A stretch of DNA of 49,788 nucleotides from Escherichia phage LL5. Below, in pieces: positions 3,764 to 49,482 of the stretch. Numbering within the stretch: the stretch's first letter is position 1; each line of letters starts with the position of its first letter. The notes below the pieces were generated by a model. That model did no database searches, was not told the origin of the DNA, and worked only from the letters and a program-made list of their open reading frames with translations. The position numbers and the translations under genes were made by a program. Where the stretch lies: the sequence record NC_047985.1. The stretch is one strand, 5' to 3'.

Positions 3764-3973
3764 ATGATCCTGTCCGTTGCTTATGCTAACCCCAGGGGGT
3801 GCAATATATTTGGTTTTAAGGTTGGCGGCATGGTTAACGCCAAATACGACGACAGAGGGCGTTTAATGGTTGAAGCGCCAAAGACAAAAGTAATGATGCA
3901 CGTTAAGGAGATTGGCGGAAGGTTGGCGATCAGGTCAATGGCAGGGCAAACGCTTGTTACTTTCTGTAAATAG
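3764..3973 (+). CDS. hypothetical protein (69 aa)
   Basis: ORF with GGGGGG SD; stop TAG lies inside box copy 4. Confidence 0.5.
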   Translation: MILSVAYANPRGCNIFGFKVGGMVNAKYDDRGRLMVEAPKTKVMMHVKEIGGRLAIRSMAGQTLVTFCK

Positions 3974-22834: not shown

Positions 22835-23593
22835 ATGGCTGAAAAACAGATCAAAAAGACTTTTGAAAATTGTCTGCAATCGCTTTTCCCTGGTGAAATA
22901 ATTACGCTTGTTGAGGTTGACGGCACAAAATTTGGTGCGCAGGTTTACCGCTTTCATGCTGAAAATATCGCGTACACTCCAGAGGAATTAATGCAAGCGC
23001 GTGAAACTGGAATATTGCCGCCGAAAGATATTAAATTTCGTGGCGAGGTTTACGGGGCGCGGCCTTTTGGGATTACTGGTATTGGCTTTACAAGTAACGG
23101 AAAGGCAGAGAAACCACAATTAGCGCTTTCAAATTTAGATAGCCGCGTATCTGCATTAATCAGATCATATAATGGAATGATGCAAGCCAAAGTAACAATT
23201 TGGGTTACATCGGCTGATTTAATTGATGAAGAAGGAAACGTGGAGGACGGCGCATATAGAAAGTTGGTTTATTATATTGAGCGTCCGAATTTTGTTAATC
23301 AGACGGTTGCACGTTTTGAATTAACATCACCTTATGACATGGACGGAATCATGATCCCGCCACGACTCACGCAAAGCGTTTGTTATTGGGCGCAAATGGG
23401 ATGGTATAGAAGCGGGAAAGGTTGCGGATATAACGGATCGGCAATGTTCGATAAAGATAATAATCCGGTAACAGATCCGAGCAAGGATTATTGCGCCGGA
23501 ACAGTGACAGCTTGTAAATTGCGCTTTGGCGCTCAAAATGAATTAGATTTCGGCGGTTGCGCAGTTGCATCACTATTGAGGAAAAATCAATGA
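22835..23593 (+). CDS. minor tail protein (lambda gpL-like)
   Basis: Cys-rich C-terminus CYWAQMGWYRSGKGCGY...CKLRF...FGGC as in lambda L. Confidence 0.85.
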   Translation: MAEKQIKKTFENCLQSLFPGEIITLVEVDGTKFGAQVYRFHAENIAYTPEELMQARETGILPPKDIKFRGEVYGARPFGITGIGFTSNGKAEKPQLALSNLDSRVSALIRSYNGMMQAKVTIWVTSADLIDEEGNVEDGAYRKLVYYIERPNFVNQTVARFELTSPYDMDGIMIPPRLTQSVCYWAQMGWYRSGKGCGYNGSAMFDKDNNPVTDPSKDYCAGTVTACKLRFGAQNELDFGGCAVASLLRKNQ

Positions 23594-24312
23594 TTAACGC
23601 AAAAATTAAACTTGAAATTATGCGCCATGCAAATGACGTTTATCCTAATGAATGTTGCGGCCTGGTAACTCAAAAATCACGCGTACAGAAATATCACCGG
23701 ATCGACAACGTAAGCAAGGAGCCGGAAAAGCATTTTGAAATGGACGCGGAACAATATGCAGAAGTTGAGGACGGCGGAGCAGATATCATCGCGATAGTTC
23801 ATAGCCATACAGGGGAGGGAGCAACCACAATCCCTAGCGCACACGATTTGTGCATGTGTGATGAAACTGGTGTTTCTTGGGTTATAGTTTCGATACCAGA
23901 AGGAGACATGAGAATCATAGAGCCACAATCACGACCTTTGATTGGTCGCCCCTGGTCGCTTGGCGCTTATGATTGTTGGGGGCTTATTATGGCCTGGCAT
24001 AAAGAGCAAGGCGTGATCCTGAATGATTTTCGCAAGCCGTATGAATGGTGGAAGCCGGAACATGGTGAAAACCTTTATCAAGATAATTACTTGAAAGAAG
24101 GTTTTATAGAAACAGGAGAGCCACCAAAGCCAGGTGATATGATCATAATGCAGTTGCAAGCGCCAGTATGGAACCACGCCGGAATTTATTTAGGCAACAA
24201 TCAACTATTGCATCATGCATTCGGCAAGTTGTCGCGAGTTGATTTATATTCTGGATGGTATCAGGAACACACAACAATGATTTGCAGACATAAGGATCTG
24301 AAAAATGAATAA
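23590..24312 (+). CDS. tail assembly protein (lambda gpK-like; JAMM/MPN plus NlpC/P60)
   Basis: JAMM motif HSHTGEGATTIPSAHD; Cys-His pair CWGLIMAWH. Confidence 0.85.
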   Translation: MINAKIKLEIMRHANDVYPNECCGLVTQKSRVQKYHRIDNVSKEPEKHFEMDAEQYAEVEDGGADIIAIVHSHTGEGATTIPSAHDLCMCDETGVSWVIVSIPEGDMRIIEPQSRPLIGRPWSLGAYDCWGLIMAWHKEQGVILNDFRKPYEWWKPEHGENLYQDNYLKEGFIETGEPPKPGDMIIMQLQAPVWNHAGIYLGNNQLLHHAFGKLSRVDLYSGWYQEHTTMICRHKDLKNE

Positions 24313-28762: not shown

Positions 28763-28884
28763 AAAGGAGGTAAATCAATGCCCTGGCTTAACGGTCGGGG
28801 CATTTTGTTTTCTTTTGTTCCACGATGTTCGCAACCGAATACGGCGTAAAATTGAAAACGTCTTGATAACAAAAAGAACAAATT

Positions 28885-28903
28885 AAATATCTATATAATA
28901 CAT
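28885..28903 (+). repeat. 19-bp AT-rich motif AAATATCTATATAATACAT (second copy at 32-50)
   Basis: identical 19-mer in both large noncoding regions, each followed by similar TAATTATTATTATATAT stretch. Confidence 0.7.
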
Positions 28904-29167
28904 ACACTTAGAGTTTAATTATTATTATATATATCTATTTGTATTATTATTGTTTCTATTGTTCTATATGGTTTGTGGTGGTTGTGTGTTTTGTATTGGT
29001 TGATGGTTATATATCACATGGTATGTATTTATATATGGTATGCGGCGCAAATGCGTGAACAATGGAACACAAAAACAACAATTAGTAAAATCATAAATTT
29101 ACGATGTGATTTTGTTGTCAATGCTAGTTGTAAACGTATGCAAAACAAAAAGAACACTTAAAGGGTA

Positions 29168-29195
29168 TTGACTACATGCAACAAAGACATATAAT
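29168..29195 (+). promoter_or_regulatory. strong sigma70-like promoter for exonuclease-Erf-SSB operon
   Basis: TTGACT-16 nt-TATAAT; about 28 nt upstream of SD/ATG 29224. Confidence 0.6.
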
Positions 29196-29223: not shown

Positions 29224-30279
29224 ATGAGCGATTTTAAAGTTTACACCTTTGACCAGTTAACCAATGATAAATATCACGATCCTAAAGGTTGGGCGGCTGA
29301 ATACGTTAGCGGTTCAAGCCTGGCAGAAATCTTTGCAAGTTGTCCGGCAGCATGGAAATACAGACCACGCGAGGAAAGCAAAGCGCTTGTTTTCGGTACG
29401 CAGTCACATACCAACTTTCAAAGCAGTGAGTTGTTCGCAAAAGAGTACCGCCGAGCGCCAGCGCCGGAAGATTACGAAAACTTAATCACAAGCCAAACGG
29501 CATTAGCCAGCAAGTTAAAATCTTTTGGCCTGACTGGTACAAGCGGGAAAACTTATCCAGACCTGATAAAAATGATGGTTGATTGTGGTGAGGATCTTAA
29601 TGTTCAGTGGCTGATTGAAATGATCGCAGAAAGCGAGGCGCGAGCGGATAACGTTGAATTGGTTCCTGCTAAAGATTACGACGCTTGCGTTACCATGCGC
29701 CGCGTACTGGAAAGCATACCTGAACACAACGCTTGTATGAATAGCCCAACAGCACAACGCGAGCTATCAATTTTCGGCACTATAAAAGGCGTGAAAGTCA
29801 AAGTAAGGCTTGACCATGTTGATATTTGCAAGGATGTGCTTGCAACGGTGATTTCCGGCTATGACGGTGAAGGGAATCCGGTTTATGAAACAACGCGATT
29901 TGATGAAGCGATTGTGATCACTGATTACAAAACAACGTCAAGCGCTAACCCAACGGAGTTTTCACGGCTGGCATTTAATCATGGTTACTACTTGAAAATG
30001 GCATTGCAGCATGACCTATTCAAGAAAGCGTATCCAGAAGAAACGCGCCCCGTAGTAGTCAGATTGCTGGCGCAGGAAAAGAAAGAGCCTTATTTACCTA
30101 TTGCATACCGCATGACGGATGAACAATTGAAGATCGGACGGCTTCAATACATGAGTGTGATAAACCAGTTTGCAGAATGCCAGGAAAATGACGTTTGGCC
30201 TTCATACGCAAACGGAGAGCCTGAAATTGATCTTCAAACGCCTGATTGGGTTCGTCGTCAATACAAAGGTTTTTTATAA
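29224..30279 (+). CDS. PD-(D/E)xK exonuclease (recombination exonuclease, putative)
   Basis: motifs RLDHVD and ITDYKTT; sits upstream of Erf-like annealase. Confidence 0.6.
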   Translation: MSDFKVYTFDQLTNDKYHDPKGWAAEYVSGSSLAEIFASCPAAWKYRPREESKALVFGTQSHTNFQSSELFAKEYRRAPAPEDYENLITSQTALASKLKSFGLTGTSGKTYPDLIKMMVDCGEDLNVQWLIEMIAESEARADNVELVPAKDYDACVTMRRVLESIPEHNACMNSPTAQRELSIFGTIKGVKVKVRLDHVDICKDVLATVISGYDGEGNPVYETTRFDEAIVITDYKTTSSANPTEFSRLAFNHGYYLKMALQHDLFKKAYPEETRPVVVRLLAQEKKEPYLPIAYRMTDEQLKIGRLQYMSVINQFAECQENDVWPSYANGEPEIDLQTPDWVRRQYKGFL

Positions 30280-31852: not shown

Positions 31853-34363
31853 TTACTTAGTAAGCTGAACAAGCATTGCTTTCATTTCAGCCATTGCGGT
31901 TTTCATTTCAGTAATTTCTTCTTTCATTTCCTCATTGTCTTTTTGTAACTCTTGAATCACAACAATAAGATCAGAAACAACAGCGCGATCATTAACGTTC
32001 ATGATTTCGAATTCATCACCATTTTCATCTGTTGCAGTGCCGCCAAAGAAAACGTAAGTATCATCTATTTCAGCCATTTGTTGCGCAAGATAACCACGCT
32101 GCAAAACATTATTTCCCTTATATGAAAACTCCATTACACCAATCTGCTTAACTCGATCCCACGCACCGACCTTTGGTTTTTCAAAGCGATCTTTAATCCT
32201 AACGTCAGACCCCTGAATTGCCACCACTCCTAGCGGCGTATTCATTATGCCGTCATCCCTAATTGAATAACTCAAACTTGAGCCATTCGATTTTGTAAGT
32301 TGCCAAGAGTAATATGTAATACCATCAACAGCGGTAATGATGTAGTTTGTTACACCGCAATTTGAATTTGCCAGATAGGAAAGCTGGTTAATTTTGTATG
32401 AATCATTTGTTTGCTGATCTGCAAGTTTTTGCACAGCCGCAACATCGGAACCACCAGTACCATAAAAAGCCCTTGAAAGCGCATTGCCTGGAATAGTAAG
32501 GTTTCCATCAGATCCAAAAATCATAACAGATGTATTATCACCAACAGCACTTATTTTTGCTTCGGTTATCCCATTTCCTATTGTTTGCGATGCATAAAAA
32601 TCAGCGCTAAAGTTGTCAGCAGTTCCAACTTTATATTTAGATTGAATCTTACCTCCAGTAACAAAAGTTCCCTGTTGTGGCAATTCTTTATCACCATTAA
32701 TAACGCTCCATGAAGTATTAGCAGCAATAAATCCGCCAAATGCTCGAATAACCCAAACACCAACAAAGTTTTTAGGAATTATGTTGTTTGAAATAGCATA
32801 TCTGCCATATACAGAATCGCTTCTTTCTGCGTTAAAATTAGTTGTAGCATTATTACGTATTCTACCAAAAGTCCCATCATTCGGTAAAAATGTTTCCTCT
32901 GTAGAAGATGCATATCCGAAAGCTCCAGATACAGTTCTAGGGGATGGCATCCATACTTTACCACTAGTATCATTAGCAAATGTACCGATTATATTTGGTG
33001 CAGCCGCTTGATAAATACGCCCATCTTCTGATGAAGTACCACCATCACCACGACCGAAAAGGCTTGTAACTGATCCAGGTTGAACACCGTTTCTATCAGG
33101 TACACGGAAAGTTGTAGTTCCGTCGCCTGTAGAATATCTGCCCCTTTTTTCTACATCAGCAAGCCAATCAGAATCACTAATCGGGCTTAATAGTTGTGCA
33201 TAAGACCATAACTCTGGATAATCTTCTCTTGATAGTAGTTGTCCGTCAGATGTTATCTCATACGGCTGTATATATGCTCGTGAATCTCTTAGGTGAAAAT
33301 CACCCACACCATAATTCATAACGCCATTCATAGTTGGGCCAAGAATCCCAGAATTTATTCTATTTTCCACCCATCGCACTGTTGTGGCATCATAATCGTT
33401 AACTGGGTCACCAGCTAGAGGAGTTGGTCCTATAGGCCGAACGTTAAGCCATGCCGCAGCGCGATCCGCGATACCATCAAGATTATCTTTCTTTAGGAAT
33501 GCTTCAGATATTGATGGAACTTTTAAATTTGCCCTCGCTTCTTCAATGTTTGCTATATCATTAAGATTCTGATCTTTATGCAACATATTGTCTGGATTAA
33601 CCTGTTGCGCCCATTGGCGAGCTTCATCACGCGCAGTTTCAGCGCCAGACTTTGCATTATCAGCACCAACCTTTGATTGCTCTGCGGCTAATTGTGCGTT
33701 TTCAGCTTCATCACGCGCGTCTAATGCTTCATTTTTAATTCCGGTTATCTCAGTAACGGCAGAATCTTTAATCTGTTGCGTTTGGTTTTTTATTGCGTCC
33801 GTGTCTGCCTTAATCTGATTGGTTTCAGCAATAGCGGAATCTTTAATCTGTTGCGTTTCATTAACAGCGGCATCTTTAATTTGTTGAGTTTCATTTACAG
33901 CAGAATCCTTAATCTGTTGCGTATCATTTTTTAATTGTTCGGTTGCAACTTTATCAGCGGCAACTTGTGCGGCATCAGCATGAACCTTATTGATTAAATC
34001 CTGCAATTCTTTCAGATCAAAATTCCTGAAAAAGTCAAGAGCTTCCTCAATGACCGTTTCTTTGCTTTGATAATAACGCAGCGTTTCCGCTACATCTTGC
34101 GCCATTCCGTCAACAGTTAACGAGTCATTCAACAGGATCACATATTTACCATCAGAAACAACAGCGCCATCAGTGCTAATAGCCTTCATTTCAGTGTCGC
34201 TAACAATTTCACTAATAACGGCAAGCTGAATAACTGGTTGCTCAAGAAATACAATGGTTGCGCCAGTGCGAATTAATGACAAAGGTTCACGCCATTTTGT
34301 TCCAGTGCCAGTAATAACGCCTTGTGCGTCCATAGCGGCGGTTCCAATACGATATAAAGCCAT
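31853..34363 (-). CDS. tail fibre with C-terminal intramolecular chaperone (peptidase S74-like) domain
   Basis: 836 aa; C-terminus SDVRIKDRF...coiled-coil [26 protein letters not shown]; 11-aa repeats in N-terminal part. Confidence 0.8.
33750..33935 (-). repeat. imperfect 33-bp tandem repeats inside tail fibre gene
   Basis: about 5 copies of GAATCTTTAATCTGTTGCGTTTCATTAACAGCG-like units. Confidence 0.7.
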
Positions 34364-38151: not shown

Positions 38152-38559
38152 ATGGTTACTGACAAAGGAGATTATCTGGAGTATTACAACAAATCAGATC
38201 CAGACGATAGGAAGGAGGAAGCGCACCAGGTTGATTCTTATTCATGGCTAACATATGAGTTTCCCATGTGGCTTGTTTGGCACACTAAAAACGAGGGGAA
38301 GAAAACCATAGGCACAGCCGTAAAGGATAAGCAAGCGGGTGTGAAGAAGGGAGTTAGCGACATTCTAATTCTGACTGGTTTTATTGGCTGCAAGTATTCA
38401 TTTATAGCCATTGAGCTTAAACGCGCCAACAAGAAAGGCACGAAGGTAAGCTACGAACAAAAGGAATTCTTGCGACGTGTCAGAGAGTGCGGAGGATTTG
38501 CCGCCGTATGCTATGGAGTAGAGCAAGTAAAATTGGCTATCGCAGACGCTACAAAATAG
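38152..38559 (+). CDS. VRR-NUC domain nuclease
   Basis: GVSDILIL...IAIELKR...YEQKEFL core. Confidence 0.65.
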   Translation: MVTDKGDYLEYYNKSDPDDRKEEAHQVDSYSWLTYEFPMWLVWHTKNEGKKTIGTAVKDKQAGVKKGVSDILILTGFIGCKYSFIAIELKRANKKGTKVSYEQKEFLRRVRECGGFAAVCYGVEQVKLAIADATK

Positions 38560-38575
38560 CACTTTTTGTTAAAAC
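38554..38575 (+). promoter_or_regulatory. conserved box copy 9 (AAATAGCACTTTTTGTTAAAAC)
   Basis: TAG is the VRR-NUC stop; hairpin GGCGCA/TGCGCC 38577-38594 then CATAAT; 74 nt upstream of ATG 38631. Confidence 0.7.
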
Positions 38576-38630
38576 AGGCGCAACGGAATGCGCCATAATG
38601 CACCCATCAGAACGAAACGGAGAATTAACC

Positions 38631-38909
38631 ATGAAAAAGATGTTATCAGTAGTTGCTTTATCACTTGCTCTTGTCGGTTGCATGGATAAACCCAAAACAT
38701 ATATTTGCGGAAATGAAGCGTTTGAGGTTACAAGCGACTATATGAAAGTTGTGCAAGGAAAAAGCACAGGCGTTGTAATGGATAATATCAGCAAAAATCA
38801 ATATAAGTTGTTTACGCCAATTGGAACGGCTTTCTACACAGTTAATGAAAACACAATTGATATTAAAGTTGGCGTTTATCAGAACACTCTAACTTGCGAG
38901 GTAAAATAA
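38631..38909 (+). CDS. small lipoprotein (candidate receptor-blocking superinfection-exclusion protein)
   Basis: signal peptide MKKMLSVVALSLALVGC with lipobox LVGC; function is speculative. Confidence 0.6.
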   Translation: MKKMLSVVALSLALVGCMDKPKTYICGNEAFEVTSDYMKVVQGKSTGVVMDNISKNQYKLFTPIGTAFYTVNENTIDIKVGVYQNTLTCEVK

Positions 38910-38910
38910 A

Positions 38911-39651
38911 ATGGCTAAAGATATTCAGGACAAAACCACAATTGACACTTTCGCACAGGAAATGTATTTTCATGAACTGCAACACGGCAGATATTCAGAT
39001 ATTGCGTTGCGTTCAGGTGGTCATTATCAGCCAGTTAGAGAAAACCCAATGTTCAAGGTTAGCGGAAACCGTTATGCAGGAAGCAAAACGCCGGACGTTG
39101 TGCGCGATTTGTGGGAAACGCCAGATGAAATTGTTGAATATCTTGCTGGACGTTACGGAAAATATGATCTTGATGCAGCCGCAACGGAAGATAACAAAAA
39201 ATGCGATAAGTTTTACAGCAAAGAAACAAACTGTTTAAAGCGTTGGTGGGGTAGCAATAAGCACGTTTGGTTAAATCCACCATATAGCAATCCAGATCCA
39301 TTTATCAAAAAAGCAATTGAGCAGATGGAACACGGAAATCAGATTGATATTTTGCTTCCCGCTGATAATTCGACGGCATGGTTTAGTGACGCACAAAAAC
39401 ACGCGGCAGAAATTATCTGGATTACTGGTGAAACCTGGAAGGATGAAGAAGGTCGCGAATATTCCAGAACTGGTCGAGTAGCGTTTATTTCTGGCATGAC
39501 AGGTGAGCCAGTTAGCGGAAACAATAAAGGTAGTGTAATTTTTATCATGCGCCAATTGGAAGAAGGTGAGCAACAGCAAACGCACTATGTGAAGATTAGC
39601 GACATTTGCCCTTCCGTAAAAAATAAACGAGCCAAAGCGCGGAGTATTTAA
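38911..39651 (+). CDS. DNA N6-adenine methyltransferase (phage Dam-type)
   Basis: DLDAAAT (motif I-like) and NPPYS (motif IV). Confidence 0.85.
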   Translation: MAKDIQDKTTIDTFAQEMYFHELQHGRYSDIALRSGGHYQPVRENPMFKVSGNRYAGSKTPDVVRDLWETPDEIVEYLAGRYGKYDLDAAATEDNKKCDKFYSKETNCLKRWWGSNKHVWLNPPYSNPDPFIKKAIEQMEHGNQIDILLPADNSTAWFSDAQKHAAEIIWITGETWKDEEGREYSRTGRVAFISGMTGEPVSGNNKGSVIFIMRQLEEGEQQQTHYVKISDICPSVKNKRAKARSI

Positions 39652-39652
39652 A

Positions 39653-39883
39653 ATGAGCATTCGATTAGCCGATCACATGAAATGGGATTTATTTGTCGGT
39701 ATGACAATTCGCTTACTTGATAAGCATGGTTATAACGATGATAAAATGGAGTTGATAAACTGCCTGGATATGACATTTGACGAAATCAAAGTTGCGCCTT
39801 TGTACATGTGGGAAAGAAAAATTGAGCACGACCTGATACAATACAAACGCAGAGAGGGCGCACGATTTTTTAATGTGAAATAG
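39653..39883 (+). CDS. hypothetical protein (76 aa)
   Basis: start adjacent to MTase stop; stop TAG inside box copy 10. Confidence 0.5.
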   Translation: MSIRLADHMKWDLFVGMTIRLLDKHGYNDDKMELINCLDMTFDEIKVAPLYMWERKIEHDLIQYKRREGARFFNVK

Positions 39884-39899
39884 CACTTTTTGTTAAAAC
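39878..39899 (+). promoter_or_regulatory. conserved box copy 10 (AAATAGCACTTTTTGTTAAAAC)
   Basis: followed by CCCGCTACGGCGGG plus TTTT (same hairpin as after copy 12); 74 nt upstream of ATG 39955. Confidence 0.7.
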
Positions 39900-39954
39900 C
39901 CGCTACGGCGGGTTTTGTATTATGTTCTTAACGGAAAACAAGAGGATTTCAAAA

Positions 39955-40224: not shown

Positions 40225-40341
40225 ATGGCGTATGTGGATGAAAAGCCGCGACGTGTTCACCGTGTTCCAGCAATACCAACTACAATCGACTATAAAGAAG
40301 TTATTAACAAAACTAAAGAGCAAAAGAAAAGGTTTAAGTGA
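40225..40341 (+). CDS. hypothetical small protein (38 aa)
   Basis: AGGTGA SD; lies in downstream part of the frame opened after TAA at 40117. Confidence 0.3.
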   Translation: MAYVDEKPRRVHRVPAIPTTIDYKEVINKTKEQKKRFK

Positions 40342-40823
40342 TTATGTGGAGCGATATATTTTATTACAAAGATGGTGTTATTTATTGGAAGGTAAGGATG
40401 AACGGAAGAAACGGAGGTGTTAAGCCTGGGGATATTGCAGGATGTAAGAATGAATATGGATACGTTGTGATTGGTTATAATGGAAAGTTGTATTATAGAC
40501 ACTCTATAGTTTGGGAAATGCATAATGGCAAAATTCCAGATGGTTTTATTATAGATCATAAAAATCCTGTTGTTGATGGTCTTGAATCAGATGACAGAAT
40601 AGAAAATCTTAGAATAATAAAACACGCAGATAATTTAAGGAAGGGATCTAATAGGTTAAGATCCAGTAATTCAAGCGGCATAACAGGAGTTTCATATATA
40701 AAACAACATGATTGCTGGAGGGCTGCAATTTGCGTAAATGGTAAAAAGATGCAAAGGAATTTCAAGTCAATTGATGCAGCAATTAATCAGCGTGTTTATT
40801 GGGAATCTATTTATATAAAATGA
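40338..40823 (+). CDS. HNH homing endonuclease with AP2-type DNA-binding domain
   Basis: HNH core HSIVWEMHNGKIPDGFIIDHKNPVVDG...ENLRIIKHADN; AP2-like GITGVSYIKQHDCWRAAICVNGKK; ATG at 40344; AT-rich region. Confidence 0.8.
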   Translation: MIMWSDIFYYKDGVIYWKVRMNGRNGGVKPGDIAGCKNEYGYVVIGYNGKLYYRHSIVWEMHNGKIPDGFIIDHKNPVVDGLESDDRIENLRIIKHADNLRKGSNRLRSSNSSGITGVSYIKQHDCWRAAICVNGKKMQRNFKSIDAAINQRVYWESIYIK

Positions 40824-42844: not shown

Positions 42845-43249
42845 ATGAAATGGCTAAAATTGCTTTACCCGTTTGCAGTAATCATATTTGCGTGTTTTAT
42901 TGTAGCTTGTTCGCCGTCAAGCGTGTTACCTGGTCTGATTGGTAGCAAGCCTGATATAACGGCACAGGCTGGAGCTGAGAATGTGAAACAGACTGTTGGT
43001 GTAACCGCAAAGCAGGATACATCAAGCAAGCAGGAAACCACATTTAAAGAATCGGCTGTTGGAAAGGTTGACACGTCGAATAAAAAACAGGTGAGCACTT
43101 CAAGCATTAAGGCAGACAACATCACAGCGGAAAGAATAGAGATCCGCAATAATGATGGTCTTAATGTTACTGCAATCGCAATTGGTATATTGATGTTTAT
43201 TGCTGGTATGCTGGCAGGGTGGACACTTAAACGTAACAAGGCGGCATAA
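42845..43249 (+). CDS. unimolecular spanin (lipoprotein with C-terminal TM anchor)
   Basis: lipobox IVACS plus C-terminal TM AIAIGILMFIAGMLAGW; follows endolysin. Confidence 0.7.
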   Translation: MKWLKLLYPFAVIIFACFIVACSPSSVLPGLIGSKPDITAQAGAENVKQTVGVTAKQDTSSKQETTFKESAVGKVDTSNKKQVSTSSIKADNITAERIEIRNNDGLNVTAIAIGILMFIAGMLAGWTLKRNKAA

Positions 43250-47901: not shown

Positions 47902-48131
47902 AATTTAACCTCATGATATTCTATGAATTCTTGCACATATGCGCATTCGCGCGGCGACTCCTGGCCTTTTAGAACTTCACAGCCACCATTAAACAGATAG
48001 CAATGCTGGCAAATGTTGCCGCCTACGTTTTCCTAAGCGATCTGAATTCCGGTACACAAACCGCCACCAAACCTATGAGGAAAATCGTAAGCCTGGCAGC
48101 GGCACGTTACTTGATGCCGCTTTCTGGTCAT
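47898..48131 (-). CDS. small Cys-rich protein interrupted by an in-frame TAG (amber) codon
   Basis: ATG overlaps upstream stop; TAG at 48033-48035 after 32 codons; frame continues 44 codons with no start to TGA that overlaps next ATG. Confidence 0.4.
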
Positions 48132-48400
48132 TAAATGTTCTCGCTGATAAATTTGATTACTTCACGAAGATGTTTTTCATCTTTGATAGTTGCTGGCAAT
48201 TCTTCCTTAACTTCTTGTTTCAGGTAAACGTTGCCGTTCCAGGTAAAAGAGCCATCATTGTTAATCAGGTAATAGCAAAGCCATTCGCAATCGTTATCCG
48301 CTTCCCAAATGCAAAGGATATCGCCATTCCCGAAATCCTCAACGCTTAACTTAATGCCACGCTTAACAGCAAAGTTAGTAGTTGTTTTTGATACCATCAT
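48131..48400 (-). CDS. hypothetical protein (89 aa)
   Basis: GGAG SD; 74 nt downstream of box copy 14. Confidence 0.5.
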   Translation of the reverse strand: MMVSKTTTNFAVKRGIKLSVEDFGNGDILCIWEADNDCEWLCYYLINNDGSFTWNGNVYLKQEVKEELPATIKDEKHLREVIKFISENI

Positions 48401-49134: not shown

Positions 49135-49155
49135 GTTTAACAAAAAGTGCTATTT
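49135..49155 (-). promoter_or_regulatory. conserved box copy 15 (- strand AAATAGCACTTTTTGTTAAAC)
   Basis: TAG is stop of ORF 49150-49428; hairpin GCCGGA/TCCGGC 49115-49132 then GCATAATA. Confidence 0.7.
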
Positions 49156-49428
49156 AGCAAAAGCAATCAAAACTTTGTGGTGAAAATGAACATCAAGTTC
49201 AACGCTTTTGCAGTCATCCGTCATTTTGATACCGTTAAACGCAATGATGATTTCACCGTTTTCTGCGTCGATGTATTGTTCAGTGTTGGCGATGCGATAA
49301 ATGCGACCTACCGCATCCATAGGATCATCAATTTCAAAATAAGCGCATACGGCCTTTTTGAGTAGCGCATCTTTCTTACTGTTGACGGTATCGGCAATCT
49401 GTTTGGTGAATTCTGTAAGCATTGACAT
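49150..49428 (-). CDS. hypothetical protein (92 aa)
   Basis: AGGAG SD before ATG 49428 (track ORF extends to 49470 without SD). Confidence 0.45.
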   Translation of the reverse strand: MSMLTEFTKQIADTVNSKKDALLKKAVCAYFEIDDPMDAVGRIYRIANTEQYIDAENGEIIIAFNGIKMTDDCKSVELDVHFHHKVLIAFAK

Positions 49429-49482
49429 TGTTTTATCTCCTGTTGTTTCGATGTGCTCAATGTAGCGCATTCGTGCTGATTG

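What the first reader, a model, noticed from the sequence alone, without database searches (positions are those of the whole stretch)
38631..38909. Small lipoprotein embedded in the replication/modification module
The product has a signal peptide ending in lipobox LVGC and a roughly 75-residue mature domain, and is expressed from its own box-plus-hairpin unit between the VRR-NUC nuclease and the adenine methyltransferase. Small phage-encoded outer-membrane lipoproteins of this size (Llp of T5, Cor of phi80/N15) block the phage's own receptor and give superinfection exclusion. That is the most likely role here but it is inferred from architecture only.
Basis: inference. Interest (0 to 1): 0.45.

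Follow-up and report, generated by a model that had tools for sequence, protein, structure and literature searches.

The report
Mobile beta-barrel lipoprotein gene upstream of dam
A TLS-like coliphage really does encode a small outer-membrane lipoprotein, but it belongs to an uncharacterised beta-barrel family that moves between phages regardless of which receptor they use, so it is unlikely to be a Cor/Llp-type blocker of the phage's own receptor.

Summary
Window 38631-38909 (+) encodes a 92-aa protein with a textbook lipoprotein signal peptide (MKK, hydrophobic core, LVG|C17) and a 76-aa mature domain, lying between a VRR-NUC gene and dam. The window is a Tlsvirus, 97.8% identical to phage TLS over the 1.6 kb around the gene; the gene is TLS gp60, annotated there with an over-long GTG start.

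The gene is real. Lipobox Gly-Cys and two further Cys are invariant in relatives down to about 30% identity, and dN/dS is 0.12-0.19.

- The mature domain has no similarity to Cor or Llp. The weak Cor PHROG hit comes from the signal peptide alone.
- It models confidently as an 8-stranded beta-barrel, with weak fold resemblance to MliC/PliC/PhiA lysozyme inhibitors, lipocalins and avidins.
- Close homologues (66-100%) sit in the same slot in phages using TolC, YncD or OmpC.
- The gene is absent from T1, Warwickvirus and Vilniusvirus.
- Its synonymous divergence is far below that of flanking genes, indicating horizontal exchange.
- The box plus hairpin is not its own: it is the dam promoter element, and the gene is inserted between that element and dam.

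Best reading, with function untested: an early accessory envelope lipoprotein acting on a conserved host envelope component, possibly excluding other phages.

The parts
38556..38574 (+). Conserved promoter-associated box ATAGCACTTTTTGTTAAAA. It overlaps the TAG stop codon of the VRR-NUC gene (38557-38559).
   Evidence: One of 18 matches in the window against 0.34 expected. It corresponds to the 21-nt direct repeat described for TLS in PMC11447400. The same box precedes dam directly in PeterMerian and T1.
38577..38594 (+). Hairpin GGCGCA-acggaa-TGCGCC inside the spacer between the box and the -10-like hexamer.
   Evidence: Predicted fold energy -11 kcal/mol. Homologous hairpins lie at the same place upstream of dam in PeterMerian and T1. 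No T-run follows on the + strand, so it is not terminator-like in this orientation.
38594..38599 (+). -10-like hexamer CATAAT, 22 nt after TTGTTA of the box.
   Evidence: Read directly from the sequence. By my reading, 17 of the 18 boxes have a -10-like hexamer (T or C, then A, ending in T or C) 21-22 nt after the TTGNTA position of the box.
38619..38622 (+). Shine-Dalgarno GGAG, 8 nt before the ATG.
38631..38909 (+). Lipoprotein gene (92 aa precursor; phrog_7420; equals the C-terminal 92 aa of TLS 'gp60').
38631..38681 (+). Type II signal peptide MKKMLSVVALSLALVG plus the lipid-modified Cys17. The +2 residue is Met.
   Evidence: Lipobox rule scan. G16 and C17 are invariant in 15 diverged members. 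The LPAM_1 Pfam motif is hit weakly by 6 of 15 members.
38682..38906 (+). Mature domain, predicted as an 8-stranded up-and-down beta-barrel. Cys26 (38706-08) and Cys89 (38895-97) are invariant and probably form a disulfide between the first and last strands.
38898..38913 (+). The dam ribosome-binding site GAGG lies inside codons E90-V91 of the lipoprotein gene. The stop codon TAA is at 38907-09 and the dam ATG at 38911.
   Evidence: The 1-nt gap implies co-transcription and probably translational coupling (inference).
38911..39883 (+). Downstream genes of the same unit: dam (38911-39651) and a small gp62-like ORF (39653-39883). The next box is at 39880-39898 and a terminator-like hairpin at 39894-39917.
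38152..38559 (+). Upstream VRR-NUC nuclease gene, which forms the left border of the insertion slot.
   Evidence: PF08774, E 2.6e-8. Homologues occur in 949 phage records, most without the lipoprotein.

Best explanation
The gene encodes an accessory (moron-like) envelope protein. The precursor is exported by Sec, lipid-modified at Cys17 and cleaved by signal peptidase II. With Met at +2, it would be carried by Lol to the periplasmic leaflet of the outer membrane. There it would display a compact, probably disulfide-locked, 8-stranded beta-barrel.

It is made early or mid-infection as the first gene of the dam transcription unit.

The cassette is exchanged horizontally between Drexlerviridae genera, independently of their receptor-binding modules. 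It is kept under purifying selection in phages of Escherichia, Salmonella, Citrobacter and Klebsiella. Its target is therefore most likely a periplasm-exposed host envelope component conserved across these hosts, not the phage's own terminal receptor.

I favour a protective or competitive role. It would make the infected cell refractory to other phages (heterotypic or post-adsorption exclusion) or to envelope attack, by binding and neutralising that component.

Shown: the gene, the lipobox, the predicted fold, the insertion architecture, the distribution, and the horizontal exchange.

Inferred: membrane location, the disulfide, timing of expression, the target, and the exclusion function.
For: - Lipoprotein signal with invariant G16-C17 and +2 not Asp in all but two distant members, P0041 and P0044.
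- Confident beta-barrel model.
- C26 and C89 are invariant, which fits an oxidising compartment.
- The promoter box is shared with early and replication genes.
- The gene is inserted between the dam promoter and dam.
- The slot is filled in Tlsvirus, Henuseptimavirus, Webervirus, Nouzillyvirus and K50PH164C1. It is empty in Tunavirus, Warwickvirus and Vilniusvirus.
- The lipoprotein is the best-conserved protein of the whole genome between the window and Klebsiella phage RCIP0001: 80%, against 56-63% for its flanks. It is only 26% identical to that of K50PH164C1, whose flanks are 59-81%.
- Its dS is 0.41 (Bas10) and 0.94 (RCIP0001), while the flanks are saturated. dN/dS is 0.12-0.19.
- No phage gene shares its identity profile across genomes, which points to a host rather than a phage partner.
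- The family was found only on phage-sized contigs or short fragments.
- Small beta-barrel lipoproteins and periplasmic proteins among the fold neighbours are protein inhibitors: MliC, PliC, PhiA, Ng-ACP, and a T6SS immunity protein.
Against: - There is no functional data for any member, and no literature on it was found.
- No sequence or fold link to any proven exclusion protein.
- Early timing is inferred only from a promoter-like box whose function is itself unproven (PMC11447400).
- Many successful relatives, T1 included, do without the gene.
- Two distant members (P0041, P0044) have Asp at +2, which would suggest inner-membrane retention there.
Confidence: 0.4

Rival explanations
1. One reading: a Cor/Llp-type exclusion lipoprotein that binds the phage's own terminal receptor (TolC for TLS-like phages) from the periplasmic side and blocks adsorption of sister phages and loss of progeny on cell debris.
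For: - TolC-using Drexlerviridae lack the RBP locus after gpJ that normally carries the cognate exclusion gene (PMC8594841). The window shows a gene-free gap at 28763-29175.
- Apart from the spanin, this is the only lipoprotein in the window.
- Size and lipoprotein nature resemble Cor (76-aa precursor) and Llp (77-aa precursor).
Against: - The same allele occurs in YncD phage Bas10 (86%), which also has its own RBP locus containing a secreted protein. It also occurs in OmpC phage GH-K3 (66%; PMC6546894) and in 168 Klebsiella phage records.
- The TolC-type GpJ tip is absent from Bas10, RCIP0001, K50PH164C1 and T1. It is present in only 43 records, none of them from Klebsiella.
- The mature domain is unrelated to Cor or Llp in sequence, and Llp is not among the fold matches listed.
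Confidence: 0.1
2. An MliC/PliC-like inhibitor of a peptidoglycan hydrolase. It would be anchored in the periplasm and neutralise a muramidase: host or animal lysozyme, a tail-borne lysin of incoming phages (analogous to T4 Spackle), or prematurely released SAR endolysin.
For: - Shared lipoprotein anchoring.
- A shared pattern of Tyr-x-Cys in the first strand plus a Cys near the C-terminus: C26 and C89 here, C37 and C102 in MliC.
- One GenBank record calls a homologue 'putative adhesin', possibly because of an ACP-like hit.
Against: - No member hits the Pfam MliC model PF09864.
- hhalign against enterobacterial MliC aligns only the signal peptide and the Tyr-x-Cys stretch.
- The MliC positions S69-A70-S71-G72 and S84-K85-G86, invariant, have no counterpart here.
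- The top fold hits also include avidins, lipocalins and uncharacterised barrels at equal or higher Z.
- The phage's own endolysin is T4-lysozyme type (PF00959), not the C-type lysozyme that MliC inhibits by name. No lysozyme domain was found in the tape-measure or tail-tip proteins scanned.
Confidence: 0.15
3. Another envelope role unrelated to exclusion: for example a small-ligand-binding lipocalin-type protein, a modulator of outer-membrane or lipoprotein trafficking, or an anti-defence factor against an envelope-located host system.
For: - Lipocalins, avidins and fatty-acid-binding proteins are among the fold neighbours.
- The allele pattern is independent of host genus and of receptor.
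- There are no hits to known defence families or curated families, so nothing constrains the function.
Against: The barrel is very small (about 70 residues), leaving little room for a ligand cavity. No positive evidence points to any specific alternative.
Confidence: 0.2
4. Not a functional gene, or the real product is the 140-aa GTG-initiated ORF annotated in TLS (38487-38909), with no signal peptide at its N-terminus.
For: RefSeq TLS annotates the long form. One metagenomic cluster is called at 133 aa (P0001).
Against: - The long form would overlap the VRR-NUC gene and read through the conserved promoter box and hairpin.
- Bas08, Bas10, KLPN1 and RCIP0001 annotate 92 aa.
- A good GGAG sits 8 nt before the ATG at 38631.
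- The signal peptide and lipobox are conserved in all relatives, and dN/dS is 0.12-0.19.
Confidence: 0.02

Closest known systems
Cor (T1, phi80, N15; phrog_1119) and Llp (T5; PDB 8A60/7QJF): outer-membrane lipoproteins that block FhuA. Also the Rtp accessory protein that binds the periplasmic face of LptD.
   Same: Small phage-encoded lipoprotein with a type II signal peptide. The mature domain has a Cys near each end. It is not a lysis gene.
   Different: No sequence similarity outside the signal peptide. The predicted fold is an 8-stranded barrel of 76 aa, against 59-62-aa mature domains, and Llp is not among the fold matches listed. The gene is not next to gpJ or the RBP genes and does not co-vary with receptor specificity.
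MliC/PliC/PhiA/ACP family of lysozyme inhibitors (PF09864 and relatives)
   Different: Fails the Pfam model and profile-profile comparison beyond the signal peptide. Lacks the MliC positions that are invariant. No C-type lysozyme is encoded by the phage.
T4 Spackle (Sp) and Imm; TP-J34 Ltp: exclusion proteins that act after adsorption (from my own knowledge of the literature)
   Same: They would be functional analogues if this protein excludes phages independently of the terminal receptor. Ltp is also a lipoprotein.
   Different: No homology was tested or expected. Spackle and Ltp are helical proteins (from memory, not tested here).
phrog_7420 (PHROGs; unknown function), including TLS gp60, Bas08_0036, Bas10_0036 and KP36_57
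   Same: Full-length match, E 1.6e-53. 100% identical to the C-terminal 92 aa of TLS gp60.
   Different: Nothing; this is the family it belongs to. No member has been characterised.

Membership tests
Bacterial lipoproteins (Lgt/LspA substrates) | N-terminal positive region, hydrophobic core, lipobox [LVI][ASTVI][GAS]C | tested here: met
   MKK / MLSVVALSLA / LVGC17. G16 and C17 are invariant in 15 diverged members.
Bacterial lipoproteins (Lgt/LspA substrates) | Actual lipid modification and outer-membrane sorting (+2 not Asp in Enterobacteria) | not testable with these tools
   The +2 residue is Met here and S, G, N or A in most relatives, but Asp in P0041 and P0044. Localisation needs globomycin or palmitate labelling and membrane fractionation.
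Cor superinfection exclusion proteins (phrog_1119) | Sequence similarity of the mature domain | tested here: not met
   The full-length hit (E 3.6e-4) covers residues 1-43 only. Mature domains give no Cor hit at E <= 1, whereas mature T1 Cor gives 3.1e-19. BLASTP finds nothing. hhalign probability 0.2%.
Cor superinfection exclusion proteins (phrog_1119) | Encoded in the RBP locus downstream of gpJ and linked to receptor specificity | tested here: not met
   T1 cor lies at 29623-29850, after gpJ and two accessory genes. Here the region after gpJ is empty and the gene lies about 10 kb away. Homologues occur in TolC, YncD and OmpC phages.
Llp (T5 lytic conversion lipoprotein) | Sequence and fold similarity to Llp (8A60_B / 7QJF_A) | tested here: not met
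MliC/PliC lysozyme inhibitors (PF09864) | 8-stranded beta-barrel of about 80-100 aa | tested here: met
MliC/PliC lysozyme inhibitors (PF09864) | Match to the family profile | tested here: not met
   None of 15 members hits PF09864 at E <= 10. hhalign against an enterobacterial MliC alignment aligns only 35 columns, the signal peptide plus Tyr-x-Cys.
MliC/PliC lysozyme inhibitors (PF09864) | Conserved lysozyme-binding loop motifs (S-x-S-G-x-x-Y and S/T-K-G) | tested here: not met
   MliC invariants are S69, A70, S71, G72, R74, Y75 and S84, K85, G86. Here the conserved loop is T62-x-x-G65-x-A67, and there is no K-G motif. That these motifs are the lysozyme-binding ones is from my own knowledge of the literature.
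MliC/PliC lysozyme inhibitors (PF09864) | Inhibition of lysozyme | not testable with these tools
   Needs an enzyme assay.
phrog_7420 | Full-length profile match | tested here: met
   E 1.6e-53 over residues 1-92 of 92. All 15 diverged relatives match.

The most novel reading that the evidence does not exclude
The cassette is a new class of phage exclusion or protection factor. It would be a horizontally mobile beta-barrel outer-membrane lipoprotein of virulent T1-like phages that works independently of the phage's own receptor. It would bind a conserved periplasm-exposed host factor needed after adsorption (for example a DNA-entry cofactor) or neutralise an incoming envelope-attacking activity. 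Divergent alleles (about 26-36% identical here, in the same slot) would then represent different specificities.
Probability: 0.3. Interest if true: 0.6.

Novelty: new variant of a known kind. Interest (0 to 1): 0.35.

Why it matters
TolC-targeting phages such as TLS and U136B are studied as tools to select against antibiotic efflux. What they do to the cell envelope during infection therefore matters.

This gene is the only non-lysis lipoprotein these phages encode. It is the best-conserved protein between an E. coli Tlsvirus and a Klebsiella Webervirus, and it has been swapped repeatedly between genera. That is the signature of a gene with a strong, portable benefit.

If it is an exclusion factor, it would show that T1-like phages carry a second exclusion layer that does not depend on their own receptor. 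This would be relevant to designing phage cocktails.

If it is not, then automatic 'Cor superinfection exclusion protein' labels on some Klebsiella phage records are wrong and should not be propagated.

Tried and rejected
- Cor homology. The PHROG Cor hit (E 3.6e-4; 12 of 15 members) looked promising, but it vanished when the signal peptides were removed. The positive control, mature T1 Cor, scored 3e-19.
- Llp homology. hhalign and both PDB fold searches were negative.
- MliC homology. I built an MliC alignment. hhalign aligned only the signal peptide and the Tyr-x-Cys stretch, and Pfam was negative. That alignment is shallow (at least 71% identity among its members), so very remote homology is not excluded.
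- PDB sequence search with the family profile gave only noise.
- NCBIfam and PADLOC gave only sub-threshold signal-peptide matches or nothing.
- Co-variation search. I compared all window proteins with Bas10, RCIP0001, K50PH164C1, T1 and TLS, looking for a phage gene with the same high/high/low identity pattern as the lipoprotein. None was found. The tape measure is 87/53/58%, and the spanin and endolysin do not track it.
- TolC link. The GpJ tip domain was searched and does not co-occur with the lipoprotein outside Tlsvirus.
- The afdb50 fold library was unavailable.
- Literature searches found no paper on this gene.
- The 140-aa GTG-start reading was rejected; see the rival explanations.

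Full report
**What the window is.** A 1.6-kb stretch around the finding is 97.8% identical to Escherichia phage TLS (Drexlerviridae, Tempevirinae, Tlsvirus). It is 92-97% identical to the other Tlsvirus-like phages of E. coli, Citrobacter and Salmonella listed. Gene order matches TLS throughout. TLS uses TolC and LPS as receptors (PMC11447400).

**The observation.** The ORF at 38631-38909 (+) starts with ATG, 8 nt after GGAG, and encodes 92 aa.
- The N-terminus MKK-MLSVVALSLA-LVG|C is a canonical type II signal peptide with lipobox L-V-G-C. Cys17 would be the lipidated first residue of a 76-aa mature protein.
- The +2 residue is Met. By the enterobacterial Lol rule (established knowledge) this predicts outer-membrane sorting.
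- A rule-based scan of all frames and all start codons found only one other lipobox ORF in the window, the unimolecular spanin at 42845-43249.
- The flanking genes are a VRR-NUC nuclease (PF08774) and a Dam methyltransferase (PF05869).
- TLS RefSeq annotates the gene ('gp60') from an upstream GTG as 140 aa, overlapping gp59. That start would read through a conserved promoter element. Bas08, Bas10, KLPN1 and RCIP0001 annotate 92 aa.

**It is a real gene.**
- It matches phrog_7420 (unknown function) end to end, E 1.6e-53.
- tblastn finds full-length homologues in 230 phage records.
- A search of 5.8 billion proteins found 34 clusters, on phage-sized (about 48-52 kb) contigs or short fragments.
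- An exhaustive profile search of 1.84 billion cluster representatives found only 11, so the family is narrow.
- In an alignment reaching about 30% identity, the invariant positions are M1, K2, G16, C17, Y24, C26, G27, Y58 and C89. Near-invariant positions are T62, G65, A67 and V91.
- Pairwise dN/dS is 0.12-0.19.

**The 'box-plus-hairpin unit'.**
- The box ATAGCACnnnTTGnTAAAA occurs 18 times in the window, against 0.34 expected. It is the 21-nt direct repeat reported for TLS, T1 and Rtp, whose function is unsettled (PMC11447400).
- The copy at 38556-38574 overlaps the VRR-NUC stop codon. It is followed by a hairpin (38577-38594) and CATAAT (38594-38599).
- Reading the 18 sites, 17 have a -10-like hexamer 21-22 nt after the TTGNTA position of the box. 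The boxes therefore look like the upstream halves of promoters.
- The same box, hairpin and ATAAT element lies directly upstream of dam in phages that lack the lipoprotein gene: PeterMerian/Bas05 and T1.
- In the window, dam starts 1 nt after the lipoprotein stop codon, and its GAGG ribosome-binding site lies inside codons 90-91.
- So the lipoprotein gene is an insertion between the dam promoter and dam. It is the first gene of a lipoprotein-dam-gp62 unit; the next box is at 39880. It does not have a private unit.

- A weak hit to the Cor PHROG (E 3.6e-4) covers residues 1-43 only and recurs in 12 of 15 relatives.
- With signal peptides removed, no member hits Cor at E <= 1. Mature T1 Cor, the positive control, scores 3e-19.
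- BLASTP of the mature domains finds nothing. hhalign of the family profile gives 0.2% probability against Cor and 1.2% against Llp. The Llp sequence was verified against PDB 8A60_B.
- This is therefore not a Cor or Llp family member.

**Structure.**
- AlphaFold2 with the family alignment gives a confident model: pLDDT about 96 for residues 21-92, with eight beta-strands.
- Foldseek against the PDB gives nothing at E <= 1e-3. The best sensible match is PhiA, TM 0.50.
- Among viral models only TLS gp60 itself and a 32%-identical 'lipoprotein' of phage ESCO41 match.
- The fold is thus a small calycin-like 8-stranded barrel.
- The resemblance to MliC/PliC is intriguing: both are lipoproteins, and both have Tyr-x-Cys in the first strand and a Cys near the C-terminus. 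But Pfam PF09864 is not hit and profile-profile alignment stops after the Tyr-x-Cys stretch. The MliC positions invariant have no counterpart here.
- The phage's own endolysin is T4-lysozyme type (PF00959). No lysozyme domain was detected in the tape-measure or tail-tip proteins scanned.

**Does it go with the receptor?**
- In Drexlerviridae, receptor specificity and cognate exclusion genes map to the RBP locus after gpJ. TolC phages lack that locus and use a C-terminal extension of GpJ (PMC8594841; bioRxiv 10.64898/2026.04.02.716166).
- The window fits this pattern: GpJ is 1258 aa and is followed by a gene-free 412 bp.
- The lipoprotein is not confined to TolC phages. It sits in the same helicase / VRR-NUC / lipoprotein / dam slot in these phages:
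  - Bas08 (TolC).
  - Bas10 IsaakIselin (YncD; 86% identical), which also has its own RBP locus with a secreted 110-aa protein.
  - Klebsiella weberviruses (168 records, mostly 62-80% identical). These include GH-K3 (66%), whose secondary receptor is OmpC (PMC6546894).
  - Nouzillyvirus (34-36% identical).
- The last ~100 residues of the window's GpJ, its presumed TolC-specific tip, have no counterpart in Bas10, RCIP0001, K50PH164C1 or T1. A slightly larger C-terminal query (107 aa) occurs in only 43 phage records, none from Klebsiella.
- The slot is empty in T1 and Sfin-2 (Tunavirus), Bas05 and JLBYU07 (Warwickvirus) and HazelMika (Vilniusvirus). Rtp and Rogue1 have no dam there and carry unrelated small genes.
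- VRR-NUC homologues occur in 949 records, against about 230-270 with the lipoprotein.

**Mobility.**

| Comparison with the window | Lipoprotein identity | Flanking genes (VRR-NUC, helicase, dam, exonuclease) |
|---|---|---|
| Webervirus RCIP0001 | 80% (best-conserved protein in the genome) | 56-63% |
| Bas10 | 86% | 62-82% |
| K50PH164C1 | 26% | 59-81% |

- Synonymous divergence of the lipoprotein gene is 0.41 (Bas10) and 0.94 (RCIP0001). Flanking genes are saturated.
- This shows recent horizontal exchange of the cassette between genera, presumably by recombination in the conserved promoter element and the conserved 5' end of dam (inference). It also shows allelic replacement in some lineages.
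- No other phage gene shares this identity profile. A co-evolving phage partner is therefore unlikely, and a conserved host partner more likely.

**Interpretation.**
- The gene is an accessory, horizontally mobile, early- or middle-expressed outer-membrane lipoprotein with a compact barrel domain.
- It is not a Cor or Llp homologue, and its distribution argues against cognate blocking of TolC.
- The most defensible mechanism is binding of a periplasm-exposed host envelope component shared by Escherichia, Salmonella, Citrobacter and Klebsiella. The likeliest benefit is protection of the infected cell from other phages or from envelope attack. This is inference; I put it at about 0.4.
- Rival explanations:
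  - MliC-like inhibition of a muramidase, about 0.15.
  - Another envelope role, about 0.2.
- No experiment on any family member was found in the literature searched.
- Two Klebsiella phage records label a homologue 'Cor superinfection exclusion protein'. That label is probably an artefact of the signal-peptide match.

**Verdict.** The finding is real but ordinary in kind: a conserved hypothetical phage lipoprotein. The added points of interest are its predicted fold, its insertion into the dam unit, and its striking horizontal mobility. Novelty: a new variant of the known kind 'phage accessory outer-membrane lipoprotein'. Interest 0.35.

Noticed in passing
window, 18 sites (e.g. 1340, 3970, 30280, 36098, 38556, 39880, 45430-, 49153-): The TLS/T1 direct-repeat box ATAGCACnnnTTGnTAAAA is followed, in 17 of 18 copies, by a -10-like hexamer 21-22 nt after the TTGNTA position. 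Several have TG one base upstream (extended -10), usually with a hairpin in the spacer, and then a Shine-Dalgarno site and start codon. This spacing is too long for a standard -35/-10 pair. The box may therefore be an activator or UP-type site of a phage-specific promoter class. The TLS paper leaves its role open.
   Followed up: partly
L001/L002 (NC_009540) 38231-38653: RefSeq TLS annotates gp60 from a GTG as 140 aa, overlapping gp59 and reading through the promoter box. The conserved product is the 92-aa lipoprotein that starts at the internal ATG.
   Followed up: yes
window 28763-29175: There is a 412-bp stretch without annotated genes after gpJ, where other Drexlerviridae carry the RBP and exclusion locus. 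It contains an unannotated TTG-start ORF (28973-29161, 62 aa) with a very hydrophobic N-terminus.
   Followed up: no
phage database records OR786094 ('Streptococcus phage MBBL140') and about 19-20 'Campylobacter phage' records (e.g. MG065685): These records match this T1-like enterobacterial phage DNA (MBBL140 is 95% identical over 1.6 kb, with the same TolC-type GpJ tip). This suggests mislabelled hosts or contaminant sequences.
   Followed up: no
window 31853-34363 (-) and 40338-40823 (+): The lateral tail fibre matches that of TLS over only about the N-terminal third (72% identity over 34% of its length). The HNH endonuclease is only 40% identical to TLS endY. Several early ORFs (365-652, 3764-3973, 48131-48400, 49150-49470) have no TLS counterpart. 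These are mosaic differences within an otherwise 95-100% identical genome.
   Followed up: no
P0041, P0044 (metagenomic relatives): Two distant family members have Asp-Asn at positions +2 and +3 after the lipid Cys. In Enterobacteria this would signal inner-membrane retention, unlike the rest of the family.
   Followed up: no
L007 6099-6431 (-) (Bas10 bas10_0024): The YncD-type RBP locus of Bas10 encodes a 110-aa protein with a signal-peptidase-I type signal peptide (MKKIMLAMALVAPLNAMA|LNV). It is a candidate cognate exclusion protein that is not a lipoprotein.
   Followed up: no
window 23557-24312 (+): The lambda-gpK-like tail-tip protein carries JAB and NlpC/P60 domains, as gpK homologues typically do (from memory). 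It was the only peptidoglycan-hydrolase-like domain found in the tail proteins scanned.
   Followed up: no
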